Below, piece by piece: positions 3,991-64,000 of a stretch of DNA of 64,000 nt. The position numbers and the translations under genes are program-made. Position 1 is the first letter of the stretch, and every line of letters starts with the position of its first letter. The notes under the pieces were generated by a model. The model was not told the DNA's origin. It saw only the letters and a list, made by a program, of their open reading frames with translations, and made no database searches. Source of the DNA: Dehalococcoides sp. JdFR-54 (GTDB lineage: Bacteria; Chloroflexota; Dehalococcoidia; JdFR-54); contig MTNP01000037.1 of the NCBI GenBank assembly GCA_002011475.1, positions 77,246 to 141,245 of the forward strand. The letters run 5' to 3'.

Positions 3991-3991
3991 A

Positions 3992-38902: not shown

Positions 38903-39820
38903 GTGTCGTTATTTCACTATGTGAAGGGACGGCTTCACCGCTTAGAGGCCCTAGGGGTGACCATCGGGCCTGGCTTTAGCCTGAGCAGGCTAAGGGGGCA
39001 CCTGGGCGACTTACTGCGGGCGGACTCTGAAGTCTCGCTTGCGGAGATAGTAGGGTCTAGGGTGGGCTATCGTCATGTCTACCTTTCACCAGGATCGCCA
39101 GGGTTTGGGGGTGACATTGATTTAGGCTTCATCCACCGCTCAGAGTATTATAGTGCACAAGTGAAGACCTTTGATATCATGAGCTCCTCCTTGGGCCAAC
39201 GTATTGCCCAGCTATCGAGAAACTTCGACGTTGGCTATGAAGGCTATGGCAACATTTTCTCTGACCGACTTTTTGTGGGCGATACACTGGCTGCTCAAAG
39301 CTTGCGCCGAGTGCCAGGCATTCCTCGGAAAGCAAGTATAGGGGTCGACCGATTCGAGCCATCCATCGAGGATTTGCTACGTGGCGTGTTAAAGATAAGG
39401 AAAGAACTCAGGGCAAAAAGCTGGCAACTCCGGAACGCCCCTGGCTACAAGCTTATTGTGTTCGACATGAGAAGGTCCCATATTGAGCCTGACTTGCTTA
39501 CGAAGACTGTGACCTACGCTCTGACTCATTCGCACGAGTTCGACCATTTGGCTTGCGTGGCCATGCTGTGGTATAACTTTCTGGCCAAAAGCGCTACTTA
39601 CGAAAGCGAAACAATGTTGGTTCCGCTTGCATTCAACGAGCGGTTTAAGTTCGACAGAGGCATCCTATTACCTGCCGTGCCCTATATTCCCGCCAAAGTG
39701 ACCCCATTTACTCTGCCCACACATATGGAGTTCCTCAAAACGGGTTGGCAGAATCTCTTTGCTGTGGAGAAAGGTGTCATCACTATAGATGGCGTGGAGT
39801 ACGGGCCTCTTTTTAGGTAG
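38903..39820 (+). CDS. hypothetical protein (low-GC moron)
   Basis: 305-aa ORF, no recognisable motif. Confidence 0.45.
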   Translation: MSLFHYVKGRLHRLEALGVTIGPGFSLSRLRGHLGDLLRADSEVSLAEIVGSRVGYRHVYLSPGSPGFGGDIDLGFIHRSEYYSAQVKTFDIMSSSLGQRIAQLSRNFDVGYEGYGNIFSDRLFVGDTLAAQSLRRVPGIPRKASIGVDRFEPSIEDLLRGVLKIRKELRAKSWQLRNAPGYKLIVFDMRRSHIEPDLLTKTVTYALTHSHEFDHLACVAMLWYNFLAKSATYESETMLVPLAFNERFKFDRGILLPAVPYIPAKVTPFTLPTHMEFLKTGWQNLFAVEKGVITIDGVEYGPLFR

Positions 39821-49185: not shown

Positions 49186-49928
49186 TGTCCAGCTTCAGCT
49201 TCGGGGGGCAGGACTTCAAGCAGTGGGGCGTCTATCTCCTGGAAGGCTCCGAGAGGCAGGTGCTGGCCCCCTCCAGGGACAGGATGATCGAGATACCGGG
49301 GAAGCACGGCGCCTATGACTTCTCCCCAGAGTACGCCCCCAGGGAGTTCAGGCTCAGGTGCGTGGTGCTGGCAAGTTCTCACAGCCAGCTCCTATCCAGG
49401 CTTCAGTCCATAGCTGGAGCTCTGAACCTCTTGAAGGGGGCGCAGCAGCTTATCTTCGACCTCCAGCCCGACCGCTACTGGCTGGCCCGGTATTCGGGGA
49501 ACCTGGCGGCTATCCTGGGGGCCATTAATGGAGAGTTCGACCTGGAGATGCTCTGCGCTGACCCTTTCGCCTACAGCACAGCCGAGAGCCAGCAGACAGA
49601 CGCTATCCCTGCCACCTTCAATGTCCCGGTGGGCGGCGACGCCGAGGCCTGGCCGATCTATGAGCTCACCGCCAGCACTGGAGGCAGCGGCACGGTCTCC
49701 ATAACGAATAATACTTTGGGCAAGACCCTTAACTGGGCTGGCTCCTGGGCCCTCGGTGATGTGCTCAGGATAGACACCGCCAGGTGGATGGTCTACCTGA
49801 ACGGCAGCCCCAGCATGGGTGGGGTGAGCGGCGACTTCCCCAGGCTCAAGGGAGGAGCCACCAATAGCTTAACCGTCTCGGGGATGAGCGGCACCTGCCA
49901 GACGACCTTCCGGGCGAGATGGCTATGA
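49185..49928 (+). CDS. distal tail protein (Dit-like)
   Basis: GTG overlapping the tape-measure stop (TAGTG). 248 aa in the siphovirus-typical position. Confidence 0.5.
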   Translation: MSSFSFGGQDFKQWGVYLLEGSERQVLAPSRDRMIEIPGKHGAYDFSPEYAPREFRLRCVVLASSHSQLLSRLQSIAGALNLLKGAQQLIFDLQPDRYWLARYSGNLAAILGAINGEFDLEMLCADPFAYSTAESQQTDAIPATFNVPVGGDAEAWPIYELTASTGGSGTVSITNNTLGKTLNWAGSWALGDVLRIDTARWMVYLNGSPSMGGVSGDFPRLKGGATNSLTVSGMSGTCQTTFRARWL

Positions 49929-52900
49929 GCCAGCTTTATCGGGTAGAGATAAGAGACGCCAGTGGAGACCTGAAGGCCATCCTGGAGAACGCCTTCGCTG
50001 TGGGCTATGAGACGGCCTTCAACGAGGTGGGGGCTGCCTGGTTCTCCCTGCCCGCCGACGACCCCAAGGCCCCCGAAATCCAGCTGGGGCGGGAGGTCTG
50101 GCTCTACGAGCAAGGGAGCCTGGTGGACGTCTACCGCATCGCCCGCCGGGAGACTCGCCGCCAGGGGACTGAGCTGGTAGCGGCGGTCTCCTGCGAGCAG
50201 GTGGGCGCCTGCCTGCTGAACGATGTCATCCCCTTCAAGGAATGGCAGAACCAGAGCGTCTCCACCATTCTGCAGGACATCCTTGGTTACCAGTCCTCTC
50301 CAAAGATCATTTTTGGCGGCGTTGACCCTGGTCTGAACCAGAGCCGCTCCCTGCGTGCCGAGTGGGATACCCTCCTCGAAGCCTGCCTCAATGTCCAGGA
50401 GACTGCAGGCGGGGTGCTCCTCATCCTGCCCGATGCCGGCGACCCCACCACCAGGAGGCTCTACCTCAAGGAGACCTGGAACGTGGGGGAGGACACGGGT
50501 CAGCAACTCCGCTACGGCAAGAACCTGGCCGAGAGCAGCCGAACCGTTGACCTCAAAGGCCTGGTGACCAGGCTCTATCCCCTGGGCTACGGTGAAGGGG
50601 AGAACCAGCTAAGGCTCTCCTGGCTGGTGGTGCAGGACGAGGAGGCCGTGAAGAGCAGCGACGCCACCTACGGCTACCTCACCCTGGGCGGCGAATACTC
50701 CTGCTATGAGGGGTACACCGGGCCGGGAGATGCGCTGCCACAGGGGATGGTGGTCAAGAAGAACGGGGTGGACGACTCGGCTAACTGGAGCCAGGGGCCG
50801 ACCGACCAGATGCTCAGGTGCCCTATCGCCGTATTTGACCCTGCCGCTACCTACACCATCACCTACCGCCATGCCGACTACCTCAAGGCGGACACCTGGG
50901 AGACCTGGGGCATCGTGGCTGCCCCCTGGGTGGACAAAGAGCAGCTCTTCTTCGATAGCCTTATCCAGGGCGGAAGGGTAGCCCTGGGCAGGCTCAAGAG
51001 CCCCAGGGTAACCTACTCCGTCAAGGCTGTCGACCTGGCCAAACTGGGCCCGGAGTGGAACTTCGAGAAGCTCTCCCTGGGCAACCGGGTAAGGGTCATC
51101 GACGAGGAGCTGGGCATCTCCATAGAGGAGTATGTGGTCCGCATCCGCAAGGGCGACCTGGCCGACCCCCTGGACTTCGAAATTGAGCTCTCCAACAGGG
51201 TGGCCGACCTGGGGGATGCGGTGGCTTCCCTCATCGACCGTCAGGGTGGGTGGGAGAGGCACACCACCAGCCAGATAGGGGCGGAACAGGTCACCCTGGA
51301 AGGGCAGGAAAGGACGAAGCTGGCCTCCTGGCAGCACGCCAGCGACCCGAAGAAGATAGACGGCGCTAAGGTCTACTTCGGCACCATCGACACCGAGCAG
51401 CTGGCGGCCCTGGCGGTCCAGTTCCAGAACCTGGGCGACGAGGTGAGGGCGGGCATCGGGCGAGAGTGGTTCGGCTGCTTCTACGAGGCAGAATCCCTGC
51501 CCGGCGGCCCTGGCAGCGTGGTAGCCGACCCCTCAGCCTCAGGCGGCTCCTGCCGCAGAGCCCTCTCCACTGACACTGCTGGCTACCTGGTCTATGGCCC
51601 TTATCTCAGCACCCTGGCCGCAGGCAACCACTGGGTGCTCTTCCGCCTCAAGGTGGCCTCCAATGTATCCTCCGACCAGGTGGCTACCCTGGATGTCTAC
51701 TGCAGCCGGGGCATCCTGGCGTCAAGGGTGGTCAAGGCCAGCGACTTTTACCAGGCCAACGTGTGGCAGTCCTTCTCCCTCCTGGCCGAGGTGCGGGAAG
51801 ATGATGCCAATCTGGAGTTCCGGGTCTATTTCCACCCAGGGGCAACTGACCTATCCTGCGACTTCGTCAGGGCCATCCCCCTGGGCCTGGTGTCCACCCA
51901 GGTCATCGAGAACCTGGCGGTGACCAATGCCAAGATCGCCGATGCCGCTGTGGGCACCCTGAAGGTGGCCGACGGCGCCATCATCGCCGGCAAGATGAAC
52001 CTCATCAGCCACATCCTGGACGGCGTGGCCTGGGGCGACAACTCTCCTTCACCAGGCTACGTCTCCTGGAGCGGGGCCAGGGTGATCTACAAAGGCGTGA
52101 CCTACAACATCGCTGACGGCAACACCAGCCTCAGGTACATCTGGTGGGACTATACCTATCCCAGCTCCTTCCAGGCCAGCGATACCAAGCCCGACCTCGC
52201 CGATGACGACTTCCTGGTCTGCCTCAACCTCAACGGGACTCACCTCCAGGTCTGGGCGGGCACCCTGATTCACGGCGGCACCATCCGCACCGGCAGCATC
52301 TCCACCGAGGAGCTCCAGGCGAGCTCAGTAACTGCAGAAAAGCTCAATGTGCTCGGCCTGGACGCCAGCGGCAAGCTCATCCTCACTCAGATAGGCTCGG
52401 GCTCCCTGGACGACATCCCCGAGGGCGCCGTCTACGGCAGGGTTAAGATAGGTGCCCTGACCAACGGCCAGGTGGACCTGAGCAAGGCCGACGTCATCAA
52501 TAAGGTCGCCGACAATATCGCCGAGTCCGCCACCAGGAAATGGGCGGCGGAAACGGGGGCCGATGTTACCGCCAACCACGAGGCGGCCCAGGCAAGGAAG
52601 CTCACCCAGAACCAGTACCTGGATGAGTTCGGCATAGAGATAGCCTCCTCCTCAGGCCCGACCAGGGTGGTCATGTCCCAGTACCGCATCGCTGGCTACA
52701 ATGCGGGCAGCCTCCAGTTCGAGCTCAGGGCCTCCGATGGCCGGGCCTACGCCGGAGGGGGCAGCGTCATCCTGGACAGCGACGGCATCACCATCAATGG
52801 CACCCTGAAGCTCATCACCTTCAAGCCCACCGCCGACTGGAGCTTTATCTACGGCGGCTCCGATGGCTACCTGCACATTGAGACCCCGGAGCTCCAGGTG

Positions 52901-53656
52901 CACGGAGATATGTATTTTGATGGCCTCGACCTCCGTACCTACGTGGGCTTCGGCTACTATGCCAGGGTCGGGCCGGATAGCGATTCCTCTGCCTATACCT
53001 TCTTCCGCACCCTGAACATAGCGGGCTCCGGGAATGTGGACCACAAGTTCTGCCCCACGGCGGGAGCCTGGGGCTACCTGGGGGATGCTACCTACTACTG
53101 GTATAAGACCTACGTCGCCTACGCTTACTTTCTAGATGTGCTGCCCAAGAACGGCCCGGATACAGGGAGCGTGGGCAACCCCACCGACTACTGGTTCAAC
53201 GGCTATTTCCACTACCTCCGCTACAAGGACCTGGGCTCCTTCCAGGAGCACGACGACATCGACCTGATACGGCAGCTGCGCCCCGACCCGGTGCGCAAGG
53301 GGCTCGTAGACAGGGCTTCCATTCCTCGGGAGATGAGGGGGCAACCCGACCCCGAGGCGGTGGCTCGCCACAGGGAGGCCATCCTCAGAGACGCCCAGAA
53401 TGAGGCAGCCAGGATTCTGGCCGAGCCAGAGCGGAAGAAGGACGTCAGCGAGGCAGAGCGGGCGCTTCTGCGGGCTGAAGCTAAGAAGCAGAGTGAGAAT
53501 ATCCTGGCCCAGGCTCAGAAGCGAGCCCTGGAGCTGGATGCGGAAGCCGATGAAGGGATCGATGTGGGTGCCTCCATAGGGCTGGCCTTCGGAGCTATTC
53601 GCCAGCTTGCCGACAGGCTGGAAGCCCTGGAAAGGGCTATCGCAGGGAGGGCATGA
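49919..53656 (+). CDS. tail tip / host-specificity protein (Tal-like prophage tail endopeptidase N-terminus with a long fibre-like C-terminal region)
   Basis: 1245 aa following Dit. The C-terminal part is rich in beta-strand repeats and ends in a coiled-coil. Confidence 0.6.
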   Translation: MAMSQLYRVEIRDASGDLKAILENAFAVGYETAFNEVGAAWFSLPADDPKAPEIQLGREVWLYEQGSLVDVYRIARRETRRQGTELVAAVSCEQVGACLLNDVIPFKEWQNQSVSTILQDILGYQSSPKIIFGGVDPGLNQSRSLRAEWDTLLEACLNVQETAGGVLLILPDAGDPTTRRLYLKETWNVGEDTGQQLRYGKNLAESSRTVDLKGLVTRLYPLGYGEGENQLRLSWLVVQDEEAVKSSDATYGYLTLGGEYSCYEGYTGPGDALPQGMVVKKNGVDDSANWSQGPTDQMLRCPIAVFDPAATYTITYRHADYLKADTWETWGIVAAPWVDKEQLFFDSLIQGGRVALGRLKSPRVTYSVKAVDLAKLGPEWNFEKLSLGNRVRVIDEELGISIEEYVVRIRKGDLADPLDFEIELSNRVADLGDAVASLIDRQGGWERHTTSQIGAEQVTLEGQERTKLASWQHASDPKKIDGAKVYFGTIDTEQLAALAVQFQNLGDEVRAGIGREWFGCFYEAESLPGGPGSVVADPSASGGSCRRALSTDTAGYLVYGPYLSTLAAGNHWVLFRLKVASNVSSDQVATLDVYCSRGILASRVVKASDFYQANVWQSFSLLAEVREDDANLEFRVYFHPGATDLSCDFVRAIPLGLVSTQVIENLAVTNAKIADAAVGTLKVADGAIIAGKMNLISHILDGVAWGDNSPSPGYVSWSGARVIYKGVTYNIADGNTSLRYIWWDYTYPSSFQASDTKPDLADDDFLVCLNLNGTHLQVWAGTLIHGGTIRTGSISTEELQASSVTAEKLNVLGLDASGKLILTQIGSGSLDDIPEGAVYGRVKIGALTNGQVDLSKADVINKVADNIAESATRKWAAETGADVTANHEAAQARKLTQNQYLDEFGIEIASSSGPTRVVMSQYRIAGYNAGSLQFELRASDGRAYAGGGSVILDSDGITINGTLKLITFKPTADWSFIYGGSDGYLHIETPELQVHGDMYFDGLDLRTYVGFGYYARVGPDSDSSAYTFFRTLNIAGSGNVDHKFCPTAGAWGYLGDATYYWYKTYVAYAYFLDVLPKNGPDTGSVGNPTDYWFNGYFHYLRYKDLGSFQEHDDIDLIRQLRPDPVRKGLVDRASIPREMRGQPDPEAVARHREAILRDAQNEAARILAEPERKKDVSEAERALLRAEAKKQSENILAQAQKRALELDAEADEGIDVGASIGLAFGAIRQLADRLEALERAIAGRA

Positions 53657-54226: not shown

Positions 54227-55120
54227 CTACCCCCTCAGCAGGCTGTCGGCGGGGGAGTATTTCCGATGCTGAGCCTGGACGTCGGTGCTCCAGAGGTTCA
54301 CATACAGCCTGACGGTTTGCAGGCTGCTATGTCCCAGTATCTGCTGCAAGCTGAAGGGGTCGCCTCCGTTCAGCAGGTACTTCCTGGCGAAAGTATGGCG
54401 GAAGGTATGGGGAGAGCATCGCTTGCCGTTGACTCCGGCGAGCCTGGCGCATTCCTCAATGATGTATTCCAGCCTGCGCACCCCCAGGGGCTTCCCGTTG
54501 CGGCCAGAGAATAGCCAGCCCGAGCGGCGGTCACTCAGGTATCTCCGTAGTTGCCTGGTGGCCTCTCTGCCGATGGGCACCATGCGCTCCCTACCCCCCT
54601 TGCCCAAGACTTTGGCTGCAGCTGTGCCATTCTCAAAGTGGATGCGCTCTACCTCCAGCCTGGCAAGCTCCGACACCCTGAGCCCGCTGTCCAGGAGCAG
54701 CAGGAAAATGGCCTTGTCACGCTGGGGGTTCCGGGTGCTGCGGGTGGCCTTCAGGAGCAGCCTTACCTCTTCGTCCGAGAAAGGCTCAGGCAGCTTGCGG
54801 GATGGCCTGGAAAGTCTGACAGCAGCGAAGGGGTCATTATGGACCTTGCCTTCGGCGACCAGCCACTTCAAGAAGGCTTTGACTACGACGGCGTTCTGCC
54901 TGGGCGTTCCGTTGCCACCTCCATTTGCCTGCAGGTGGGTAATGTAGGCCCTGAGGTCGGTAGCGGATAGAGTTCCTGGCTCCGTCTTTCCGTTGTCACC
55001 GCACCAGTCGGCGAAGCGCCTGAGCCTGGCGCCATAGACCTTCAGAGTGCGCTCTGCCTTTCCCTCAACGGCCAGCGCCGCCAAATATTCCCCCACGACC
55101 CTGTGGATAGCTGTCATCAT
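54227..55120 (-). CDS. tyrosine-type site-specific recombinase/integrase (XerC/D-like)
   Basis: N-terminal SAM-like domain. Catalytic region R...HTFRHTFA...LGHSSLQTVRLY. Start set at MMTAIHRV (GGAGG upstream). Confidence 0.8.
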   Translation of the reverse strand: MMTAIHRVVGEYLAALAVEGKAERTLKVYGARLRRFADWCGDNGKTEPGTLSATDLRAYITHLQANGGGNGTPRQNAVVVKAFLKWLVAEGKVHNDPFAAVRLSRPSRKLPEPFSDEEVRLLLKATRSTRNPQRDKAIFLLLLDSGLRVSELARLEVERIHFENGTAAAKVLGKGGRERMVPIGREATRQLRRYLSDRRSGWLFSGRNGKPLGVRRLEYIIEECARLAGVNGKRCSPHTFRHTFARKYLLNGGDPFSLQQILGHSSLQTVRLYVNLWSTDVQAQHRKYSPADSLLRG

Positions 55121-55145
55121 GCCCTCCTGTGCTTCTTGCCTTGCC

Positions 55146-55179
55146 CACATTCATCGCTCTCCTCCCGCAGGAAGTCAAG
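55146..55179 (-). promoter_or_regulatory. conserved leftward promoter-like motif, copy C (upstream of the tyrosine integrase)
   Basis: cacattcatcgctc...caggaagtcaag. Confidence 0.4.
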
Positions 55180-55277
55180 CTGCAGGGACAAAAGGGGATT
55201 GACTTCTCCAGTCTTGACATGCTACTATTGCGGCAGCGAAAGGCTCAAATGTTCGGACATATTAGGGAGTATAAGCC

Positions 55278-55496
55278 ATGCCTGTGCTTGATACCTATCT
55301 GAATGTAGTGGAGGCAGCTGCTATTCTTGGAGTCCACTGGGAGACGGTTAAACGCCTGTGCCGGGAAGGGCGCATCCCGGCGGAGAAAGTTCACAATACC
55401 TGGCTCATTCACAAAGACAAGCTGGAACAGTTTGCCGGAACCTACAATGACCCTAGGCGCGGCAAAAGAAAGAAAACTGGACGAGTAGTCCCATAG
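55278..55496 (+). CDS. excisionase-family / MerR-like HTH DNA-binding protein
   Basis: LNVVEAAAILGVHWETVKRLCREGRIPAEKVHNTWLIHKDKLEQF fits the excisionase-type HTH pattern. Confidence 0.55.
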   Translation: MPVLDTYLNVVEAAAILGVHWETVKRLCREGRIPAEKVHNTWLIHKDKLEQFAGTYNDPRRGKRKKTGRVVP

Positions 55497-55618
55497 GAAC
55501 ATTAGAGTGATGCCCCAAGCTCGTAGTAAGGACCGCTCTGCGCTGACGTGGGAAGTCTGTGGGGTCAGGACTGAGCCATCCGTCCTTCTGCTCAACACTA
55601 TGAAGCAGGCAGGGCAAA

Positions 55619-58300
55619 ATGGATGAAAGTACTCAATGGGACTTAATCAGGCGCGCTGCTGAGCGCGGGTATCTAGAAATTAGGGACAACAGGGTCCGCT
55701 ATATTTGCAGGCGGGTTTACGACGACGATTTCACTGACCCTGAGGAGCCTGTAAGAGCAGCTATATATGCGTGGCTGATCCTAGAGCGGGAGTACCCAAA
55801 CACGCAGATCGATGTCGAAGTGACCGTACCTCGAAGGATTCCAGCGGATCGGGCTGACATTGTCGTGTATGAAGATGCGAGATGTCTCCAGCCCTATTTG
55901 GTGGTAGAAACTAAGGAACGCGGCATAGGCCCAACGGAGCTAGCAAGAGCCATAGAGCAAGCTTTTGGGAATGCTAACTCTATTAGGGCGAAATATGCTC
56001 TGTTTGATAATCTAGACAGCTCGCGGCTTTACGATGTAGCAAACTTTCCGCCAGCGGAACGCGACGCCAACTATCTCGGGCCACGGGAAAACCTGCCCTC
56101 GGAGTTCGGCAGAGCTCTTGAATTTCGCCTCATTGCAGGCACCCCAGCAGATATAAGATCAGTAAGTGCCTCAGACCTCGAAAATCGGGTCAGGCGTGCC
56201 CATGGGATGATATGGGCCGGGGGCATGCGCGACCCTCTTACAGCGTTTAACGAGTGGTCAAAACTGATATTCGCAAAGGTACATGACGAGCGGCACACTC
56301 CAAATGGCCAACCTCGAAGATTTCAAGTCGGGGCTGGCGAAAGTGCTGTCAGGCTTGGTAATAGAATTCGGGCTCTGTACGACGAAGCCCGAATTGGTGA
56401 CCCATCTATTTTTTCTGAGCCAATATCACTTCCCGACGACAAGATTCGTGAGGTAGTGCGCACCTTTGAGGAAGTCGGCCTCACCTTAATGGACGTTGAC
56501 GCGCTCGGGGCAGCGTTCGAGGCATTCTTTGGCACTGTTTTCAGAGAAGAGTTGGGGCAATATTTTACTCCGCGTCCGCTGGTTCGTTTCACCGTAGCGA
56601 TGCTGATGCCCCAAGAGCGCGATATCCTGCTTGACCCCACTGCTGGAACAGGTGGGTTTCTTCTCGAGGCTTTGTTCCAAGTGTGGAAGGGCATAGACAA
56701 GGCATATGCGGGACAGCCTGAGCTTGAGCGGCGCAAGTATGATTTCGCACGGCAGCGATTGTATGGTATCGAGGTGCACCCCATAGTGGGCAGAATCTGC
56801 CAGACTAACCTATTAGTGCATCGTGACGGGCACACAAACATAGAGGTGGGAAAGACCTGCCTCGATGCAAGCTTCAGAAATCATCGCATTACAACAGTAA
56901 ATCCACCCTTCACCATCGTGCTGGGGAATCCACCATTCGGAGATGCAATTGAAGAAGGAGACAGTGACCGTCTCGGTTCTAGCCACCTAGACGACTTTGA
57001 GTTAGCCAGGGGCAGAAACAAGATCGACTCGGAGATAGTAATACTGGAGCGGGCTATCAAATTCCTTGCCCCTGGCGGCCGCCTTGGAATGGTAGTTCCA
57101 GATGGGCTTCTGAATAATACTGGTGAGCAATCACGCTGCCCTGCGTTTCGAAGATTCTTACTAAAATATACTCGTGTGCTGGCTGTAGTGTCGCTGCCGG
57201 ACCATGCGTTCAGAAAACAAGGTGCCCAGAATAAGACAAGCCTTTTGTTTTGCCGAAGATATACACAAGAAGAAGAACGGGCCTTTGAGCGGTCTTATAG
57301 TCAAGCCCTCCAGGAAATGAAAGACGCCCCCTTGTCCGACGTTGAGAAGGAGAGTGAGGCTATCAAGAAAGCCCTCATACATCATAGGTATAAAGTTTTC
57401 ATGGCAGAAGCGAATAATGTCGGATATACGGCGACGGGAATGCCGAGCCAACTTAACGACCTATACCATGCCGAAGACCGTGTTCCGCAGTATGAGGCTC
57501 AAGACACAATCCTCGGCCAATATGTTCAGTTTCTCAGAGATCCAGATGCATACGAGGGGACTCTACAGCCACCTTGCTTGGCAGAGTGGATAGACCAAGT
57601 GTTCGAGGCTCATAAGTCACATCGCTTGGACCCCAAATATCATCTTTTCAAGCGCGAAGAACACCAAGGTAGCCCGGAGGGAATGAAGCGATACAAACTT
57701 GGCGACGTTCTGAGGAGAAGGAGAGAAGCCTTAGTCCCTTACGACAGTCCTGACAGAGAGTTCTTAACGCTTACCCTTACGCAGGAAGGGGAACTGAAGC
57801 CACGCGAAGCGGGGGTCGGGAATAACCCGCCCGCATGGTTTGGCATCTATTTCACACCGGGAGTTAGATGGTATCGGGCTCGGGCCGGAGATCTCATCGT
57901 CTCTCGTATAGATGTGTGGAAGGGGTGCGTATCAGTCATCCCTGATGAATATGACGGTGCAATTGTGACCCAGGAATTCCCCATATACGCGGTGCGAGAG
58001 GAGATTATTCGTCCCTATTACCTCAAGCTGCTCCTCCGGACCGACTACTTCAGAAGAGCTATACGTGCCGTTACTACTGGACATTCAAATCGGCGGCGGA
58101 CCCAGGACGATGATTTTGAGAACCTGGAAATCCTTCTCCCAGATGTCACGGTGCAAGACAGGATTATTGAAGTGGTCCGGAAGAAAGAAAATGATAAAGA
58201 AGCTGCTGCACGCCAACATGAAGAACTTCTCACAAGGGTGGAGAAGGTCATTATGGGCAGCACTGATATCGGTGAATTCCTAAAGGAAGTTGGCAGCTAA
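55619..58300 (+). CDS. single-chain Type IIG/IIL (MmeI-like) restriction-modification enzyme: N-terminal PD-(D/E)xK nuclease, gamma-class N6-adenine methyltransferase, C-terminal target-recognition domain
   Basis: ADIVVYED...YLVVETK (D/ExK). Motif I LLDPTAGTGGFL. Motif IV LGNPPFG. A ~250-aa C-terminal target-recognition-like region. Confidence 0.65.
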   Translation: MDESTQWDLIRRAAERGYLEIRDNRVRYICRRVYDDDFTDPEEPVRAAIYAWLILEREYPNTQIDVEVTVPRRIPADRADIVVYEDARCLQPYLVVETKERGIGPTELARAIEQAFGNANSIRAKYALFDNLDSSRLYDVANFPPAERDANYLGPRENLPSEFGRALEFRLIAGTPADIRSVSASDLENRVRRAHGMIWAGGMRDPLTAFNEWSKLIFAKVHDERHTPNGQPRRFQVGAGESAVRLGNRIRALYDEARIGDPSIFSEPISLPDDKIREVVRTFEEVGLTLMDVDALGAAFEAFFGTVFREELGQYFTPRPLVRFTVAMLMPQERDILLDPTAGTGGFLLEALFQVWKGIDKAYAGQPELERRKYDFARQRLYGIEVHPIVGRICQTNLLVHRDGHTNIEVGKTCLDASFRNHRITTVNPPFTIVLGNPPFGDAIEEGDSDRLGSSHLDDFELARGRNKIDSEIVILERAIKFLAPGGRLGMVVPDGLLNNTGEQSRCPAFRRFLLKYTRVLAVVSLPDHAFRKQGAQNKTSLLFCRRYTQEEERAFERSYSQALQEMKDAPLSDVEKESEAIKKALIHHRYKVFMAEANNVGYTATGMPSQLNDLYHAEDRVPQYEAQDTILGQYVQFLRDPDAYEGTLQPPCLAEWIDQVFEAHKSHRLDPKYHLFKREEHQGSPEGMKRYKLGDVLRRRREALVPYDSPDREFLTLTLTQEGELKPREAGVGNNPPAWFGIYFTPGVRWYRARAGDLIVSRIDVWKGCVSVIPDEYDGAIVTQEFPIYAVREEIIRPYYLKLLLRTDYFRRAIRAVTTGHSNRRRTQDDDFENLEILLPDVTVQDRIIEVVRKKENDKEAAARQHEELLTRVEKVIMGSTDIGEFLKEVGS

Positions 58301-59422
58301 ATGCCTAGACATAGAAGTTTGACCCTGAAGAAATTCATCACAGCCATCAACGACACCGACCCTGGTCTGGTTGAGCGATACTTTTTACAGCTCATCCCAA
58401 AGGAGAAGCTACCTCCATACCTAATGATTATGCACTACGACTATGTGAGGCACTTGCTGGAGGGGTTGGAGGACGAGCGGCTACGGGGGACAATTTACGA
58501 AGACCTCCGCCGGATAAACGACATCGGCGAAAAAGCGATGGGCACCCTGGTGAGGACCACCAAGCGCTTCGGAATCGAGACCAACCAGAACGAGAAGCCT
58601 CAGGCTCTAGCTATGAGATTGTTCCTAGACCATCCTGAAGCTTTCGATTATGCTTGGGCCTGGTACTGTTATTACTACTCAACGAGCAAGATAAGCCAGC
58701 ATCGCATCGACTGCCAAGGGTTCAGCATCGATGTCGACAAACTGGATGCCTTCAAAGAGGAAGTGAGGTCATTCTTCTCTGACCTGGCCAAGGGCGAGGA
58801 ATGTCGAGTAAGCCACTATGAAGAGGACAACGAGGTAGTGATACTCGTTGCCCACGGCTCTTATATTCGGACAGTTGCCCGTTGGGAAGGTCGTGAAATA
58901 AAAATCGAGTCCTTTCGGCCCGCCTATGAGGACATTCTCCTCTACGACAAGACCCGCTCCCTGCTCTGTATAAAAGCTACCCTGGACAAGGATCGAGAGC
59001 AGTATATCAAGTCATTCACCAATGCCATCCTTGCTAACCCAGCCCTGGCGGAGAGCCCGAATAGGGATAAAGTCTATACCCTGCGCCCGCTTCAAGACGG
59101 CACCTTTAGCTGGGATGGGAACGAGCACATAACTTCCATAATCCCCTTAGAGGCGAGGCTGAAGCTCAGGGGCTCAACGGAGCCCGTTGTCGAGATAAGG
59201 TCTAAGGACTTGAGGCGAACCTTCGAAGACGACCTTGAAGGGCTTGATCTGGCCTCAGGGGAGCTGGTCTACATGAAATTCAGATTTACCATTGAGGTTG
59301 AGGATAAGGTCGAGAAGATTACCTTTATCATCGCCCCTCCGGATGTCACTGACCTGGCCAAGAAGAAGCACGCCGATATTATCTCGGCCTATCTCAAGGA
59401 AAATGGAGTGCAGCTAATTTGA
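58301..59422 (+). CDS. hypothetical protein (first of a two-gene operon between the restriction-modification gene and the deaminase-STAND gene)
   Basis: 373 aa. Starts 1 nt after the restriction-modification gene stop. Confidence 0.5.
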   Translation: MPRHRSLTLKKFITAINDTDPGLVERYFLQLIPKEKLPPYLMIMHYDYVRHLLEGLEDERLRGTIYEDLRRINDIGEKAMGTLVRTTKRFGIETNQNEKPQALAMRLFLDHPEAFDYAWAWYCYYYSTSKISQHRIDCQGFSIDVDKLDAFKEEVRSFFSDLAKGEECRVSHYEEDNEVVILVAHGSYIRTVARWEGREIKIESFRPAYEDILLYDKTRSLLCIKATLDKDREQYIKSFTNAILANPALAESPNRDKVYTLRPLQDGTFSWDGNEHITSIIPLEARLKLRGSTEPVVEIRSKDLRRTFEDDLEGLDLASGELVYMKFRFTIEVEDKVEKITFIIAPPDVTDLAKKKHADIISAYLKENGVQLI

Positions 59423-60510
59423 TTGACTGGATACTGCGAGAGCTGGAAAAACACCCGAATACGCTCTTTTATGAGAAGGAGCTGAAGGTTAGGGATGCCG
59501 CTGAATTTACTAAGATGAGGCGGGAGAGGCTCCTGGGCTACGTTCAACCTGATGACCGTAGTGAGACCTACGGGGTTGGGCAGGCAAAGCCTCTCTCAGT
59601 GGTCAACATTGGTGGCGAGCTTTACGGTATTGATGACGAGGACGCCGAAAAGGACCCCGTCCACCTGAGAAAGACAGACTTGGCTAGATATAGTTTTTCC
59701 CTGGACCGGTTCATAGATAAGCTTAGAGCGGTAAACAACCTTCTGGGTTCAGCCTCGCCGCTGGACAAGCGTCTGTTTTTCGCAGGGGAGAAGACTGTCA
59801 ATGGTAAGAGGGTGGCTTTTGTATTCGCGTTGCTTGACTCCGAGAAAAGGGCGGCTGACCTGCTCCTAACCCTACCCAGCCGGGTGTCTCCTAATCATGA
59901 CCGCATTGCTGTAGTTACTCCCTCCTTCACAGTTAAATCCGAGGCTGTGAGAGCACAGCTTGAGAGATTGCGTATCTATGTAATGCCACTCGGCGATACC
60001 ATGAGCCTTGAAACGGACGTATCGAGCCTTTTTAAAGAAGCGCCTCAACCATCGCCGTCAGCGTTGCTTACCTCCGAGCAAGAAGAGGAATTCGCTCGGT
60101 ATGGCTATAAGAGCAGATTGCCAATCTATATCACAGGGGATGTCGAGAAGCGGGCAACTAACATTGTCGAGATAAATGAGACCCGGGTTCCAATAGGAGA
60201 TGCTGCCTTTACCCTCTTTCTAAGGCTCGTGGTGGAGCTCAAGAAGAATAAGAAGGGCTCGGTTTCAAAAAGCACCCTTATAAGAGGCGGATACATCAAG
60301 GCTGATGGGGAATTCCAGGCCATTGCCCGGCTACGGCAAGCATTTAATGCGGCTCTTGGTTGGCTTGCTCCGCAGGAATTCATAGAAGCCCCGAAGCCGA
60401 AGACATTGCGCCTTTCCACCCATCCGGACCTCGTAACCTATGACAAAGAGAAGCTACTACGGCATAGCAACGAAAAGATAAGGAGGCTGGCACGACGGTT
60501 ACCCGGGTGA
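59419..60510 (+). CDS. hypothetical protein (second gene, 4-nt overlap)
   Basis: 363 aa. Confidence 0.5.
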   Translation: MIDWILRELEKHPNTLFYEKELKVRDAAEFTKMRRERLLGYVQPDDRSETYGVGQAKPLSVVNIGGELYGIDDEDAEKDPVHLRKTDLARYSFSLDRFIDKLRAVNNLLGSASPLDKRLFFAGEKTVNGKRVAFVFALLDSEKRAADLLLTLPSRVSPNHDRIAVVTPSFTVKSEAVRAQLERLRIYVMPLGDTMSLETDVSSLFKEAPQPSPSALLTSEQEEEFARYGYKSRLPIYITGDVEKRATNIVEINETRVPIGDAAFTLFLRLVVELKKNKKGSVSKSTLIRGGYIKADGEFQAIARLRQAFNAALGWLAPQEFIEAPKPKTLRLSTHPDLVTYDKEKLLRHSNEKIRRLARRLPG

Positions 60511-60596
60511 CTGAGGCTCGTTGTCACTTAGCCGCTACAGGCGAAGCAGATCATATCTAGCGTCATTCCGCTTGTGGGAGATGGAGGGATTAACAG

Positions 60597-63320
60597 TTGA
60601 GTCAGGAAGAAATCAATTACATGAACTTGGCAATAGAAGAGGCTAAGAAATCAAGACCTGAGCCTGACGGGCGAGCCCACCCCAAGGTGGGGGTAGTCGT
60701 CGTAAGAGACGGCAAAATCTTGGGTACAGGTTACAGGGGAGAAATATCCTTTGGTGATCATGCTGAATATACCGTTCTTGAAAGAAAACTGCCTGACATC
60801 GATTTGACTGGGGCGACACTTTACACCACCCTTGAGCCGTGCACGAGGCGTAATCATCCAAAGGCACCTTGTGCGAAAAGAATCGTGGACAGAAGAATAG
60901 GTAAAGTCGTAGTCGGGATTTTAGACCCAAATCCGGACATTTATAAGAGCGGTCTATTCCTTCTAAGGGAAAGGGGGATATCGGTAGAACATTTTCCTGC
61001 TCAGTTACCAGGTGAAATAGAGGAGCTAAATAGGGACTTCTTGAAAGCTCAAAAAGAAGCTCGAGAGCGAGAATTGGAACCGCTCTTATTTCATCCTTTT
61101 CCCCTCCCCAAGAACTTTGCTGGACGTGAGCGAGAGTTAGACGATCTCGTTAAGATGCTTTCGGATGAAAGCGATGAGGCACCGCGAGTGGTCGCTATTT
61201 ATGCTATCGGCGGAACAGGAAAGTCGTGCTTAACGCGCAAGCTCATAGAAGAACGCCATCGCATTGCTCCACCATTCGATGCCATCTTCTGGTTTTCGTT
61301 CTACGAGGCTAAGCTGGAGGAGGCGGCCTTTGACCAGTTCTGTGAGGCTGCGCTTATTTACCTGACTAACGGGAAGTTCGACCCTACTTCTCCTCCCCTC
61401 TCCCCTGCTGCGAAGCGTGTGAAGCTTGACGACCTGCTACGTGGCCGGAGGGCACTCTTGGTGCTCGATGGCTTGGAAGTGGCACAGCGTCCTGATTTTA
61501 GACACCCTCGCTACGGTGAGGTCATTGATCGGGAGCTCCGCAGGTTCATCCAGGGCGCATGTGCTTTGCAGCGCAGTCGCCTATTGGTAACGACGCGGTT
61601 TCCTATCAGCGACTTGAGGGAAGTGCGTGGTTTCCATAGCCTATTACTCGAAGATTTGGCACCTCAGGACGCGCTAGGGTTCTTGCGCAAACAAGGCGTG
61701 AAAGGTAAAGGATACCGTCTCCGGGAAGTTGCTGCACACTATGGTCATCATGCTCTTACCTTAACTGTGCTGGCAGACTATTTAGTACGTTTCTATGATG
61801 GTGATATCGAGCAAGTGAGACGACTCGCTTATTTACCTGCCGAATCGAGGCAGGGCGAGAAACTTCAGTCTGTCCTCAATGGCTATTGGGAAATGCTGAC
61901 AGAAGCAGAACGCTTCTTTATGACGCGTCTTAGCGCTTTTCGTAGCGGAGTAGATGAGCAGGCGTTTGCTGTGCTGACGGTGGGCGATCCCAGCGACCCG
62001 ACATTCCGGGCAATGTTGTCACGGTTGCTTGATTCATCTTTGATTAAGAAGGAGGAGAGGCACAAAAAGGTTTACATTGCACATCCTGTTATTAAAACAT
62101 ATTTCTATGACCGCATGGGGCAAGAGGAGAGGCGACAGACGCATTTGGCATTGAGAGATTACACTGCTGGCTTGCCAGTACCAGATGAGCCACAGACGAT
62201 CGAAGATTTGGAACCACTGTTTGAACTGTTTCACCAATGTCTCGGTGCAAGACTGTATAACGAGGCGTTTGAGGTATATGGGCGTGGCAAAATGGATATT
62301 ACCCTTCTCTATTGGGGTCATTATGATGCAAATCGTCAGCTGGTCGAACCTTTGATTACTGCGTTTGAGCAGACGCCACCCGTTTGGGATGCTGCTCCCC
62401 ATCAACGCATTCGCCTGTGGTATGTATCCGCTCAACTTCATGCACGCTCCGGACAAACAGAGCAAGCGATTCATCGTCTTAAAGCTGCAATTGCTGCTCA
62501 CCAAGACTCCAAGGGCACCAAAAAAGAGACTCTATCAACAGGCTGGAGGTACTTAACTGAAGTCCTGATTCAATGTGGGGATTTGAATGGAGCACGTGCA
62601 AGCCTAACTGAGTTTCATGCGGTGGAGGAGGCTCTCAAACGTAGAAGAAAGTCTGACCTATTTATGGGGCTATCAGGCTGGTGCTCATTAGAACTTGGCG
62701 ATGTGAAGTCCGCTGCTGAAAACCTTTCAGCAGCGTTGTCAACAAGCCGTGAGCGCTACACTCCTCGAACTCGAATGGAATGCTTATGGCTTTGTAAACT
62801 GGGGGACCTTCATTTGCGAACGGACCAACTAGAGCAAGCGTTTTCAAACTATAAAAACGCTTTAACGATAAGCGTGGCGAAGAAATATAGAGATTGGGAA
62901 GGCCATGCGCTCCGAGGATTCGGCGACTTTTATCGCCTTGTACGCAACTATGAGAGCGCTGAGAAATACTATCGCCATGCGCTTTATGTCGCGGAGGGGA
63001 CTGGCTATCAGTATTTAGAGGCAGAGGTGTGCGTGGGGTTAGCACGCCTCTCTGTGGTGTCTGAGGCTAGAAGCCGAGTGCCAGACCTTGAGGCACCTCA
63101 GCACTGGATGAAAAAGGTGCTCATGATTGCCGAAGAGTGTGGCTACCGCGTGCAAAAGACAGAAGGACATTTGATTGCAGCACAGTTAGCTTTGGAGCAA
63201 CGCGAAGTAGAGTCAGCACAGTATCATGTGAAGGCAGCGAGGGAACTCGTCGATTTCACAGGGCACTATTGGACGCTAAAGGAGTTGGAAGAGCTTGAGA
63301 ACACGTTGCGCCTTGGCTAA
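60597..63320 (+). CDS. CMP/dCMP-type (TadA/RibD-like) zinc deaminase domain fused to an NB-ARC/STAND NTPase and C-terminal TPR repeats; candidate antiviral STAND
   Basis: Deaminase motifs DHAEYTV and [15 protein letters not shown]...[11 protein letters not shown]. Walker A IGGTGKSC, Walker B LLVLDGLE, hhhTTR (LLVTTRF), then TPR-like repeats to the end. TTG start (alternative ATG at 60621). Confidence 0.7.
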
Positions 63321-63430
63321 ACCGTTTGGCATGGGTTCTGGTCAGCGCCAAGCCAGCCCTATGTAATTTCCAGCAAATTGCTCAGCTTTGAGGAATATAT
63401 GAAGAAAAGACAAAATAACAAACCGCTGGC

Positions 63431-63949
63431 GTGCCTCGGCAGCCTGGCCTTGCTGTGCGAGAATACCAGCAGCTGGCTGAGGAGATACCACAGCTTATCA
63501 CTGACATCGTTGCATCGGAGCGACGAGTGCCAGTTTATACACGTGAGCGTGATGGCACGATTCTTTCGGGCTACGGGGCTATCGGGCAGGCGAATGTGAG
63601 GCTTCAGGTTGCAGAGCGATTCTTTGAAACTCACAGAGAGCTAAAGGCGTGGATGCTACCGCACTTCTTTGAGGTTTGGGACAATGACAAGCCCGTGCTT
63701 AAGCAGCATATCGTGCTTGGTCTAGGCACAGCTGTTCAGGGCATTAGAGATGGGCGCAAGCGTGACTACGTCTTAGTCGAGCTGAGCCAAATAAACTTTC
63801 AAGGCAAAGCCCTGGACAATAGGCGCGTCACCATCCTGTCAGAAGAAGCGCAACTCCCGGCTCAGCAGCAACCGTCAGCTAGACGGGGCCAAAGAGGAAG
63901 GGCGCAGGCAACACAAGGGACACTGCTTGAAGAGGATGATGAGCCATGA
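63431..63949 (+). CDS. hypothetical protein
   Basis: 172-aa ORF at the window edge. Confidence 0.35.
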   Translation: MPRQPGLAVREYQQLAEEIPQLITDIVASERRVPVYTRERDGTILSGYGAIGQANVRLQVAERFFETHRELKAWMLPHFFEVWDNDKPVLKQHIVLGLGTAVQGIRDGRKRDYVLVELSQINFQGKALDNRRVTILSEEAQLPAQQQPSARRGQRGRAQATQGTLLEEDDEP

Positions 63950-64000
63950 AGTGTAAAGTAGCCTTCCAAACAGTTAAAAACATGGGGGCAGGGTGTTGAC

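What the first reader, a model, noticed from the sequence alone, without database searches (positions are those of the whole stretch)
60597..63320. Deaminase-NB-ARC-TPR protein: candidate undescribed antiviral STAND with a nucleotide/base deaminase effector
The 907-aa protein has three parts. The N-terminal ~150 aa carry the zinc-deaminase signature (H-A-E ... P-C-x8-C, then DPNPD as in RibD/TadA/dCMP deaminases). This is followed by a complete NB-ARC-type STAND NTPase (Walker A GGTGKS, Walker B LLVLDG, hhhTTR, GLPL-like) and a C-terminal TPR sensor array. That is the effector-NTPase-sensor layout of Avs/STAND defense proteins, but with a deaminase as the effector. The deaminase could deplete or edit nucleotides or nucleic acid when a phage is sensed. 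The gene lies in a lower-GC island next to a tyrosine integrase and a restriction-modification gene, which is a typical defense-island context. I cannot assert novelty of the family without a search.
Basis: partly seen in the sequence, partly recalled or inferred. Interest (0 to 1): 0.85.

Follow-up and report, generated by a model that had tools for sequence, protein, structure and literature searches.

The report
Deaminase-armed NLR-like phage sensor gene
A single 907-residue gene fuses a riboflavin-pathway-type (RibD-like) zinc deaminase to an NLR-like ATPase switch and a TPR sensor; it is very probably a mobile antiviral sensor whose output enzyme has not been described in bacterial immunity.

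Summary
ORF 60597-63320 (+) encodes 907 aa. It has an intact zinc deaminase (H55-A-E57, C82, C92), a complete NB-ARC/AP-ATPase-type STAND NTPase and about 19 TPR-like helices.

Relatives of the same NTPase+TPR chassis carry TIR, SIR2, trypsin-like, metallophosphatase, alpha/beta-hydrolase-like or EAD5 domains instead. This effector swapping is the hallmark of Avs/NLR-like defence proteins.

Four orthologues (73-75% identity) lie in unrelated genomes. All keep about 50% GC regardless of the GC of their flanks, and their neighbours are not conserved. It is therefore a horizontally moving single-gene system.

I found no paper or PADLOC model that describes it. The substrate and the anti-phage activity are untested. 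I rate it a new variant of a known kind, interest 0.62.

The parts
60583..60587 (+). Shine-Dalgarno-like GGAGG, 9 nt upstream of the TTG start
   Evidence: Read directly from the sequence.
60597..63320 (+). Whole gene: 907-aa deaminase-NB-ARC-TPR protein (stop codon 63318-63320)
   Evidence: ORF list. Pfam domains. An identical protein, P0001, is annotated only as 'tetratricopeptide repeat protein [Dehalococcoidia bacterium]'.
60597..61076 (+). N-terminal RibD-like zinc deaminase domain (aa 1-160), the predicted effector
60759..60767 (+). H55-A56-E57: zinc ligand His and catalytic Glu
   Evidence: H55 and E57 are invariant in 147 module sequences. They align to RibG H49/E51.
60837..60872 (+). 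P81-C82 ... C92 (C-x9-C): the two zinc-ligand cysteines, with a basic insert (R85, H87, K89)
   Evidence: C82, C92 and R85 are 100% conserved and K89 is 99% conserved. K89 aligns to the RibG phosphate-binding K79 (residue role from PMC8256712).
60924..60935 (+). D110-P-N112-P: RibD-type ribose-binding loop
   Evidence: D110 is 100% conserved; position 112 is N in 80% and D in 20%. They align to RibG D101/N103, which bind ribose O2'H/O3'H (PMC8256712).
61125..61646 (+). STAND nucleotide-binding domain (aa 177-350): Walker A 61209-61226, Walker B 61455-61478, sensor-1 TTR 61590-61598
   Evidence: Pfam NB-ARC and AAA_16. The invariant columns G205, G206, G208, K209, D291, G292, E294, T332 and R334 hold across 12 relatives. 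The model has pLDDT >80 here.
61647..62111 (+). Helical domain (ARC1-like, with GHHALTL at aa 383-389) and winged-helix domain (invariant His496 at 62082-62084)
   Evidence: Alignment A1. AF2 secondary structure. Foldseek hits are the TPR-STAND 6mfv (E 5e-19), Apaf-1, CED-4, plant NLR resistosomes and Avs3.
62112..63317 (+). C-terminal TPR-like solenoid (aa 506-907, 19 helices), the predicted sensor
   Evidence: Pfam TPR_12, TPR_8, TPR_14 and TPR_MalT. AF2 helices 509-904 have pLDDT mostly >85. This region aligns with P0005, P0095, P0098, P0075 and P0077, which carry other effectors.

Best explanation
The gene encodes a self-contained NLR-like (STAND, AP-ATPase/NB-ARC clade) immune sensor carried on a mobile island.

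Proposed mechanism, step by step:
1. The C-terminal TPR solenoid binds a trigger, most likely a phage protein (inferred).
2. Binding releases autoinhibition. The NB-ARC module exchanges or binds ATP and oligomerises (inferred from the family).
3. Oligomerisation clusters the N-terminal RibD-like zinc deaminase domains and switches them on (inferred).
4. The deaminase is a catalytically intact descendant of the riboflavin-pathway RibD deaminase. It has lost the reductase partner and changed a base-contacting residue (RibG N23 is H28 here). It keeps the RibD ribose-diol loop (DPNP) and the phosphate lysine (shown).
5. The most likely chemistry is therefore hydrolytic deamination of a free ribonucleotide-type molecule. 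The most parsimonious candidate is a guanine-like 2-amino group, as in the RibD substrate; cytosine or adenine nucleotides are alternatives (inferred).
6. This would deplete or poison a nucleotide pool and arrest the infected cell or phage replication (inferred).

What is shown: the domain anatomy, the intact motifs, the effector swapping on the same chassis, the spread of the module, and horizontal transfer. What is inferred: the trigger, the activation mechanism, the substrate and the anti-phage effect.
For: (1) Intact tripartite anatomy.

(2) The NTPase-TPR part folds like 6mfv, Apaf-1, CED-4, plant NLRs and Avs3.

(3) The chassis has relatives with swapped N-terminal effectors:
- TIR_2: P0067, P0071, P0085, P0091, P0099.
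- Trypsin_2: P0098, P0077.
- SIR2_2: P0093.
- Metallophos: P0094.
- EAD5: P0081.
- A GxSxG hydrolase-like domain: P0005.

(4) The deaminase module is a distinct, strongly conserved family.
- 792 cluster representatives score E<=1e-30, and the best 150 score 170-198 bits. RibD structures score about 75 bits.
- H55, E57, C82, C92, R85 and D110 are 100% conserved.
- The module sits at N-terminal, internal or C-terminal positions of otherwise unrelated proteins. Partners include TIR, NACHT-WD40, NACHT-TPR, HD, PNP_UDP_1, KaiC-type ATPase and HATPase_c_4+HTH.

(6) The contexts of module-bearing proteins are defence- or mobile-element-rich:
- L001: TIR, SIR2-TPR, VRR_NUC and transposases.
- L008: ResIII/RE + methylase + SNF2.
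- L011: two SIR2 genes, SNF2-NOV_C and SLFN.
- L022: conjugative element plus ABC-3C components MC2/CTD6.
- IMG/VR prophage L015: beside an integrase.

(7) The gene moves horizontally.
- Orthologues at 73-75% identity occur in a Dehalococcoidia MAG, a Thermodesulfovibrionales genome and a contig binned as Bathyarchaeia.
- The gene has GC about 0.50 everywhere, while the flanks have 0.605, 0.375, 0.436 and 0.425.
- Neighbours are not conserved.

(8) There is precedent for nucleotide-targeting enzymes at the N-termini of NLR-like defence proteins: PNP ATP nucleosidase (10.1101/2023.01.24.525353) and dGTPase (PMC13519002).
Against: - There is no experimental evidence for phage defence, for a trigger or for any substrate.
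- No PADLOC Avs/NLR model matches the protein, so membership of a named Avs family is not shown.
- In the full-length model the deaminase part is poorly predicted (pLDDT 40-70). Nothing can be said about autoinhibitory contacts.
- The STAND-fused lineage has K117 where 98% of the module family has Gly in the GxG loop after DPNP. This could alter activity.
- TadA, which acts on tRNA, is also a close structural relative. In the 504-aa proteins the module replaces a Schlafen/AlbA_2 domain. Both points hint at a nucleic-acid target.
- Only four full-length orthologues exist in 5.8 billion protein clusters, so context statistics for this exact fusion are thin.
- One orthologue (L004) sits among housekeeping genes.
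Confidence: 0.6

Rival explanations
1. Same STAND sensor, but the deaminase edits a polynucleotide. It would act as a translation-blocking or mutagenic effector on a tRNA anticodon, mRNA or phage DNA (TadA- or APOBEC-like) rather than on free nucleotides.
For: - The family-specific invariant basic residues R47, R85, K89 and R99 could bind a phosphate backbone.
- In the roughly 504-aa proteins the module occupies the position that a Schlafen/AlbA_2 nucleic-acid domain has in HATPase_c_4 proteins. Compare P0015 with its neighbour in L011.
Against: - The best matches by both sequence and fold are mononucleotide deaminases: RibD/RibG, Rib2 and dCMP deaminases.
- The RibD-specific ribose-diol loop DPNPxIxGxG and the phosphate lysine are retained.
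Confidence: 0.2
2. The protein is a non-immune signalling STAND. It would be a metabolite- or stress-sensing switch, like MalT or AfsR-type TPR-STANDs, that controls a deaminase acting in nucleotide or flavin metabolism of the host or the mobile element.
For: - Many bacterial NB-ARC-TPR proteins are regulators. There are weak NCBIfam matches to AfsR and NsdA TPR regions.
- The closest enzyme family is a biosynthetic one (RibD).
- One orthologue lies beside housekeeping genes (L004).
Against: - There is no DNA-binding domain.
- Chassis relatives carry TIR, SIR2, protease and EAD5 domains.
- The module is fused to TIR and NACHT-WD40 proteins.
- The gene is rare, patchily distributed and compositionally foreign in three different hosts.
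- It is not linked to rib genes in any locus seen.
Confidence: 0.1
3. The gene is one component of a multi-gene system together with the upstream methylase and the two unknown ORFs (55619-60510).
For: All four genes are on the same strand. Only an 86-nt gap separates them from the STAND gene, with no consensus promoter or terminator in the gap. All have about 0.51 GC.
Against: - Orthologues of the STAND gene have entirely different upstream genes.
- The 373/363-aa pair recurs elsewhere without the methylase and without any deaminase-STAND.
Confidence: 0.05
4. The deaminase domain is a catalytically silent decoy or ligand-binding sensor rather than an effector.
For: - Inactive enzyme domains occur in conflict systems (PMC7159879).
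- In deaminase-TIR fusions another effector is already present.
Against: - All zinc and catalytic residues, and the RibD substrate-contact residues, are invariant or nearly so across 147 diverged sequences.
- The domain sits at the N-terminal effector position of three different STAND lineages.
Confidence: 0.05

Closest known systems
Avs / bacterial NLR-like antiviral STAND proteins (Avs1-21; Gao lab and others; PMC13581612, PMC11564622)
   Same: Single polypeptide with an N-terminal effector, a STAND NTPase and a C-terminal alpha-helical repeat sensor. Effectors are exchangeable on a conserved chassis. The gene is mobile and island-borne. Avs3 is among the structural hits.
   Different: No PADLOC Avs model matches. 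The NTPase is of the NB-ARC/AP-ATPase type and is closest to 6mfv, Apaf-1 and CED-4. The effector is a CDA-fold deaminase. The trigger is unknown.
RibD/RibG deaminase domain (riboflavin biosynthesis; PDB 2b3z, 2g6v)
   Different: No reductase domain. Scores of 76.7 and 75.5 bits fall below the equivalog cut-offs of 500 and 156. RibG N23 is replaced by His28. New invariant residues R47 and R85. Fused to immune-type domains and horizontally mobile.
Defence dCTP deaminase (DCD, Tal et al. 2022) and AvcD (Hsueh et al. 2022)
   Same: CDA-fold zinc deaminases used as anti-phage effectors that corrupt a nucleotide pool.
   Different: There is only a 19.5-bit partial match to the PADLOC dCTPase model, covering 44 of 630 positions. 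The P-loop kinase-like domain is absent. Control would be by a STAND switch rather than by sensing transcription shut-off or by an RNA antitoxin. The retained ribose 2'/3'-OH binders argue for a ribo- rather than a deoxyribo-substrate.
Cap17/Detocs PNP ATP nucleosidase and dGTPase modules fused to NLR-like proteins (10.1101/2023.01.24.525353; PMC13519002)
   Same: An immune-specialised clade of a housekeeping nucleotide enzyme. It is shuffled among many defence architectures, including the N-termini of STAND proteins.
   Different: Different fold and chemistry: deamination rather than N-glycosidic or triphosphate cleavage. The module described here has not been tested.
RADAR RdrB and CRISPR-associated Cad1/CAAD adenosine deaminases
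   Same: Deaminase effectors that convert (d)ATP to (d)ITP on activation by a partner ATPase or a signal.
   Different: Those are TIM-barrel amidohydrolase-fold adenosine deaminases in two-protein or CARF-controlled systems. This one is CDA-fold and is fused to a STAND.

Membership tests
STAND NTPase, NB-ARC/AP-ATPase clade | Walker A GxxGxGK[ST] and Walker B hhhhD | tested here: met
   GGTGKS at 205-210 and LLVLDG at 287-292. These are invariant in 12 relatives. Pfam NB-ARC scores 27.6 bits against a cut-off of 23.5.
STAND NTPase, NB-ARC/AP-ATPase clade | Sensor-1 Arg (hhhTTR), helical ARC1 domain with a GxP/GLPL-type motif, and a winged-helix domain with a conserved His (MHD-like) | tested here: met
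   T332 and R334 are invariant. GHHALTL (aa 383-389) replaces GLPL. H496 is invariant. The model shows NBD-HD-WHD topology. Foldseek hits are 6mfv, Apaf-1, CED-4 and plant NLRs.
Avs (antiviral STAND) | Tripartite effector-NTPase-sensor protein whose relatives carry interchangeable immune effectors | tested here: met
   TIR_2, SIR2_2, Trypsin_2, Metallophos and EAD5 on the homologous NTPase(+TPR).
Avs (antiviral STAND) | Match to a named Avs/AVAST family model | tested here: not met
   PADLOC-DB v2 returns no Avs/NLR model at E<=0.01. The newer families Avs6-21 could not be tested because their models and supplementary tables are not available.
Avs (antiviral STAND) | Protects against phage; the sensor binds a phage protein; oligomerisation activates the effector | not testable with these tools
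   Requires plaque assays, trigger screens and biochemistry.
RibD/RibG (diaminohydroxyphosphoribosylaminopyrimidine deaminase/reductase) | CDA-fold deaminase with HxE, PC-insert-C, the DPNP ribose loop and the phosphate Lys | tested here: met
RibD/RibG (diaminohydroxyphosphoribosylaminopyrimidine deaminase/reductase) | C-terminal reductase (RibD_C/DHFR-like) domain and a score above the equivalog cut-off | tested here: not met
   No reductase domain is present. NF008052 scores 76.7 against 500, and TIGR00326 scores 75.5 against 156.35. RibD_C is not among the 25 most frequent families listed for the 83 module proteins scanned.
Defence dCTP deaminase (DCD) / AvcD | Kinase-like P-loop domain plus a dCMP-deaminase-type domain matching the family model | tested here: not met
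   Only a 19.5-bit hit over profile positions 454-497 of 630. The N-terminal kinase-like domain is absent.
Polymorphic-toxin deaminases (MafB19, DddA-like, SCP1.201 etc.) | C-terminal-hairpin-division deaminase at the C-terminus of a secreted toxin, with an adjacent immunity gene | tested here: not met
   The Pfam MafB19-deam hit (38 bits) lies under the stronger dCMP_cyt_deam_1 hit. The fold is helix-4 division and RibD-like. The domain is N-terminal, with no secretion or immunity features.
RADAR RdrB / Cad1 adenosine deaminases | Amidohydrolase (TIM-barrel) adenosine deaminase fold | tested here: not met
   The domain is CDA-fold.

The most novel reading that the evidence does not exclude
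The RibD-derived deaminase is a widespread immune effector module that has gone unrecognised: about 800 clusters at 50% identity, fused to STAND, TIR, NACHT-WD40, HD and many unannotated sensors. Its substrate would be new to immunity. The most parsimonious candidate is the 2-amino group of guanine ribonucleotides (GTP/GMP to XTP/XMP), because the RibD substrate is a ring-opened GMP. That would be a new way of poisoning the nucleotide pool, and possibly a new deaminase chemistry for biotechnology.
Probability: 0.2. Interest if true: 0.85.

Novelty: new variant of a known kind. Interest (0 to 1): 0.62.

Why it matters
NLR-like STAND sensors and nucleotide-pool attack are both established themes of bacterial immunity. 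The deaminases known in defence are dCTP/dCMP deaminases and TIM-barrel adenosine deaminases.

This gene points to a third deaminase lineage, recruited from riboflavin biosynthesis. It is conserved at 50-60% identity across hundreds of otherwise unrelated proteins, which is the signature of a shared immune effector like TIR, SIR2 or the Cap17 PNP domain.

Identifying its substrate would add a new metabolic target to antiviral immunity. It would also explain a large set of 'pyrimidine deaminase RibD-like' and 'TPR repeat protein' annotations in metagenomes. It might yield a new deaminase activity.

The finding also gives a clean test case: a single gene, an obvious catalytic knockout (E57A) and an obvious switch knockout (K209A).

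Tried and rejected
- Conservation of the two upstream ORFs with the STAND gene was tested and rejected. BLAST of the upstream genes in L001 and L004 against the window proteins gives nothing. The 373/363-aa pair is an independent cassette.
- Looking up the identical protein P0001 to obtain more flank failed; it is not on record. The genome-contig scan did not return the source genome, so the far end of the island beyond 64000 remains unseen.
- No att-like direct repeats bracket the island within the window.
- The promoter/terminator scan was uninformative. The only consensus promoter, at 55199-55228, lies upstream of the HTH_17 gene.
- The full-length AF2 model, built from 12 sequences, gave a poor deaminase domain. 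I re-modelled the domain with 69 sequences and obtained pLDDT 94.4.
- The global alignment A4 of all homologues misaligned the STAND relatives and was not used.
- The afdb50 fold library was unavailable. The BFVD search gave only distant viral dCMP deaminases.
- Eight literature searches and reading of PMC7159879, PMC8195603, PMC13581612, PMC12803255, PMC3239186, PMC13276650 and PMC13519002 found no description of a deaminase-STAND or of a RibD-like defence module.
- Gao et al. 2022 (Science) is not held. The supplementary tables of the 2026 STAND survey are not held. Prior listing in a table therefore cannot be excluded.
- Substrate assignment from sequence alone was attempted. It only narrows the answer to a ribose-phosphate-bearing ligand.
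Full report
**Observation**

It runs 60597..63320 on the + strand and encodes 907 aa. It has a TTG start, and a GGAGG sequence lies 9 nt upstream. Orthologue P0004 begins at the equivalent of codon 9, so ATG 60621 is an alternative start.

Pfam finds dCMP_cyt_deam_1 at aa 5-107 (E 1.6e-15), NB-ARC at aa 178-291, AAA_16, a weak NACHT match, and several TPR families over aa ~596-880.
- Deaminase: H55-A-E57, P81-C82, C92 and D110-P-N-P.
- NTPase: GGTGKS 205-210, LLVLDG 287-292, TTR 332-334, GHHALTL 383-389 and an MHD-like H496.

The one small correction is that the cysteine spacing is C-x9-C, not x8.

The compositional island is real. The gene has GC 0.499 and the region 55200-64000 has 0.509, against 0.605 for the first 54 kb.

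**The NTPase-sensor part**

An AlphaFold2 model built from 12 aligned relatives is confident from residue ~170 onwards (mean pLDDT 81.5, TPR region mostly >85). It shows the canonical order of nucleotide-binding domain, helical domain and winged helix, followed by 19 helices of TPR-like solenoid.

Foldseek against the PDB gives a TPR-containing STAND (6mfv, E 5e-19) as the best hit. Apaf-1, CED-4, plant NLR resistosomes and Avs3 follow. The switch therefore belongs to the AP-ATPase/NB-ARC clade.

A homologue search with residues 166-907 found relatives that align over the NTPase, and in several cases over the whole TPR region. These relatives carry different terminal domains:
- TIR_2: P0067, P0071, P0085, P0091, P0099.
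- Trypsin_2: P0098, P0077.
- SIR2_2: P0093.
- Metallophos: P0094.
- EAD5, an effector-associated adaptor: P0081.
- A GxSxG hydrolase-like domain: P0005, 36% identical over the whole chassis.
- A C-terminal UDG: P0075.

Effector exchange on a conserved sensor-switch chassis is the defining pattern of Avs/NLR-like defence proteins. It is the strongest evidence that the deaminase occupies the effector slot.

**The deaminase**

By sequence, the nearest solved structures are RibD/RibG deaminase domains (E 6.5e-20). TadA comes next (1e-8).

I aligned the domain to B. subtilis RibG. The RibG sequence was recalled from memory, and its numbering reproduces the published H49/E51/C74/K79/C83/D101/N103. 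The correspondences are:
- H55/E57/C82/C92 correspond to the zinc site.
- K89 corresponds to the phosphate-binding K79.
- D110/N112 correspond to D101/N103, which bind the ribose 2'- and 3'-hydroxyls. These residue roles come from PMC8256712.
- RibG N23 is His28 here.

The domain also shows the RibD-like hallmarks listed by Iyer et al. 2011: an insert within the CxxC motif, and an extended insert after strand 4 (PMC3239186).

It is nevertheless not RibD. It has no reductase domain, and it scores 76.7 and 75.5 bits against equivalog cut-offs of 500 and 156.

**A mobile module**

Searching 1.84 billion cluster representatives with residues 1-165 gave 792 proteins at E<=1e-30. The best 150 score 170-198 bits and are 51-61% identical to the query. 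RibD structures score about 75 bits.

These are representatives of 50%-identity clusters, so the regions outside the module must differ between them. The module indeed lies at N-terminal, internal or C-terminal positions of proteins from 147 to 1077 aa.

Across 147 such sequences, H55, E57, C82, C92, R85, D110 and G107 are invariant. R47, K89, T78 and N145 are >=99% conserved. This indicates an active enzyme under strong constraint.

Most partner regions have no Pfam match. The recognisable partners are TIR (P0025, P0028, P0041, P0044), NACHT-WD40 (P0023), NACHT-TPR (P0053), HD (P0031), HATPase_c_4+HTH_DeoR (P0006-P0020), PNP_UDP_1, a KaiC-type ATPase and a nucleotide cyclase. At least three unrelated STAND lineages have thus captured the same module at their N-terminus.

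The STAND-fused lineage studied here has one peculiarity: Lys117 where 98% of the family has Gly.

**Context and mobility**

Only four full-length orthologues (73-75% identity) were found among 5.8 billion protein clusters. They occur in a Dehalococcoidia MAG (the window), a Thermodesulfovibrionales genome (L004) and contigs of which one is binned as Bathyarchaeia (L001-L003, L013).

The gene keeps about 0.50 GC in every host, while the surrounding DNA has 0.605, 0.375, 0.436 and 0.425. The flanking genes are unrelated between loci. The gene is therefore a horizontally moving, self-sufficient unit.

Contexts seen:
- L001 has TIR, SIR2-TPR, VRR_NUC and transposase genes nearby.
- The deaminase-TIR protein P0044 sits beside a ResIII/methylase/SNF2 cluster.
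- P0015 sits beside two SIR2 genes, SNF2-NOV_C, an SMC-like ATPase and a Schlafen-like gene.
- P0042 sits on a conjugative element next to ABC-3C conflict-system components.
- A 297-aa module protein lies near the integrase end of an IMG/VR prophage.
- The contexts of P0052 and P0023 are less telling, and L004 is partly housekeeping.

In the window, the gene is the last visible cargo gene of a low-GC island. The island starts with a tyrosine integrase (54227-55150, -) and an HTH_17 excisionase-like gene (55278-55496). It continues with an 893-aa PD-ExK-nuclease/N6-methylase/TRD protein and a two-gene cassette of unknown function. The island abuts a prophage that has its own serine recombinase.

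**Mechanism**

Shown:
- An intact zinc deaminase of RibD type.
- An intact NB-ARC switch.
- A TPR solenoid.
- Effector swapping on the same chassis.
- Sharing of the module among immune-type proteins.
- Horizontal transfer.

Inferred from the STAND/Avs families:
- The TPR binds a trigger.
- The NTPase oligomerises.
- The clustered N-terminal domains become active.

Inferred from the RibD-like pocket:
- The substrate carries a ribose with free 2',3'-hydroxyls and a 5'-phosphate. That points to a free ribonucleotide-type molecule rather than a base inside a polymer.
- The RibD substrate is in effect a ring-opened GMP that is deaminated at the position equivalent to guanine N2. A guanine nucleotide is therefore the most economical guess.
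- The N23-to-His change shows that the base pocket has been remodelled, and cytosine or adenine nucleotides cannot be excluded.

The main rival is a TadA-like action on tRNA/RNA. Support for it comes from the closeness of TadA, the extra invariant basic residues, and the module's replacement of a Schlafen/AlbA_2 domain in one architecture.

**Comparison with what is known**

The protein works like an Avs/NLR-like sensor. It meets the architectural and motif criteria of STAND NB-ARC proteins. However, it matches no named Avs model in PADLOC v2. I could not test the newer Avs families, because their tables are not held.

It is not a member of any of these families:
- RibD: the reductase domain is absent and the score is below the cut-off.
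- The DCD/AvcD family: only a 19.5-bit partial match, and no kinase-like domain.
- RADAR/Cad1 deaminases: a different fold.
- Polymorphic-toxin deaminases: a different division of the fold, and no secretion or immunity features.

The nearest conceptual precedents are the Cap17-type PNP ATP nucleosidase and the dGTPase modules. Both are immune-specialised clades of nucleotide enzymes found at the N-termini of NLR-like proteins (10.1101/2023.01.24.525353; PMC13519002).

**Novelty and score**

Eight full-text searches and seven papers read gave no description of a deaminase-STAND or of a RibD-like defence module. A 2026 review lists only dCTP deaminase, AvcD-type and adenosine-deaminase systems. 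NCBI annotates the protein merely as a TPR repeat protein. Unsearchable supplementary tables could still list it.

I rate it a new variant of a known kind: a known sensor-switch architecture with an apparently undescribed effector family. Interest is 0.62. A specialist would not be astonished by another Avs effector, but a conserved RibD-derived module spread over hundreds of protein clusters with an unknown substrate is a concrete, testable lead.

Noticed in passing
window 58301-59422 and 59419-60510 (+): A conserved two-gene cassette (373 aa + 363 aa, 4-bp overlap) with no Pfam, PADLOC, PHROG or NCBIfam match. The 363-aa family has at least 60 clusters. The same pair recurs at 40-55% identity in L017/L018 (beside HTH_3, UvrD-PDDEXK and SACS-NOV_C genes) and in L019 (after a LexA-like repressor). 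In those loci there is no methylase and no deaminase-STAND. It is an independent mobile module and a candidate defence system in its own right.
   Followed up: partly
window 55619-58300 (+): An 893-aa single-chain protein with an N-terminal HSDR_N_2 PD-ExK nuclease motif, an N6_Mtase domain and one S-subunit-like target-recognition domain. It is type IIG-like and shows a partial MAD2 match (200 bits against a cut-off of 720). Its stop codon abuts the ATG of the 373-aa ORF, so the two may be translationally coupled.
   Followed up: partly
window 54227-55150 (-) and 55278-55496 (+): A tyrosine integrase and a divergent HTH_17 (excisionase/AlpA-like) gene sit at the boundary between the 0.61-GC prophage and the 0.51-GC island. 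The only consensus sigma-70-like promoter in the island (55199-55228) lies just upstream of the HTH gene. No att repeats were found within the window.
   Followed up: partly
window ~4285-53656: A prophage-like region. It holds a large serine recombinase (4285-5994, -), a DNA helicase (12472-14079), a 1317-aa D12 methylase-ATP-ligase fusion (26981-30934), a tape-measure protein (47692-49185) and a 1245-aa tail protein (49919-53656). A tRNA-Gly(TCC) lies at 24252-24329.
   Followed up: partly
window 18639-19727 (+): A low-GC insert inside the prophage encodes a 362-aa TPR + CAP12/Pycsar-type TIR protein (PF10137, E 1.5e-24). This is a likely prophage-borne defence gene.
   Followed up: no
window 31043-33529 (-): A low-GC (0.48) insert encodes an 828-aa SACS (sacsin-like) + NOV_C protein. 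The same domain pair neighbours the 373/363-aa cassette in L017. It may be another defence-type cargo gene.
   Followed up: no
window 38903-39820 (+) and 63431-63949 (+): Two ORFs (305 aa in a low-GC patch, and 172 aa just downstream of the STAND gene) have no match in Pfam or PHROGs. Their function is unknown.
   Followed up: no
L015 5968-6861 (IMG/VR UViG_3300049432_000210): A 297-aa protein carries the same deaminase module (54% identity) on a viral contig. It lies about 3 kb from a tyrosine integrase, and a Schlafen/AlbA-like 434-aa gene lies upstream. So the module is also carried by prophages.
   Followed up: partly
L013 (DATKWH010000065.1, Candidatus Bathyarchaeia MAG) 2400-5141: A 913-aa orthologue (74% identity) lies on a 6.8-kb contig binned to an archaeon. 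It has the same 440-aa upstream gene as L001-L003. This is either inter-domain transfer or a binning artefact.
   Followed up: no
protein residues 116-119 (window 60942-60953): The four STAND-fused orthologues have Y-K-S-G where 98% of the module family has x-G-x-G directly after the DPNP loop. This is a lineage-specific G117K change near the predicted ribose site.
   Followed up: no
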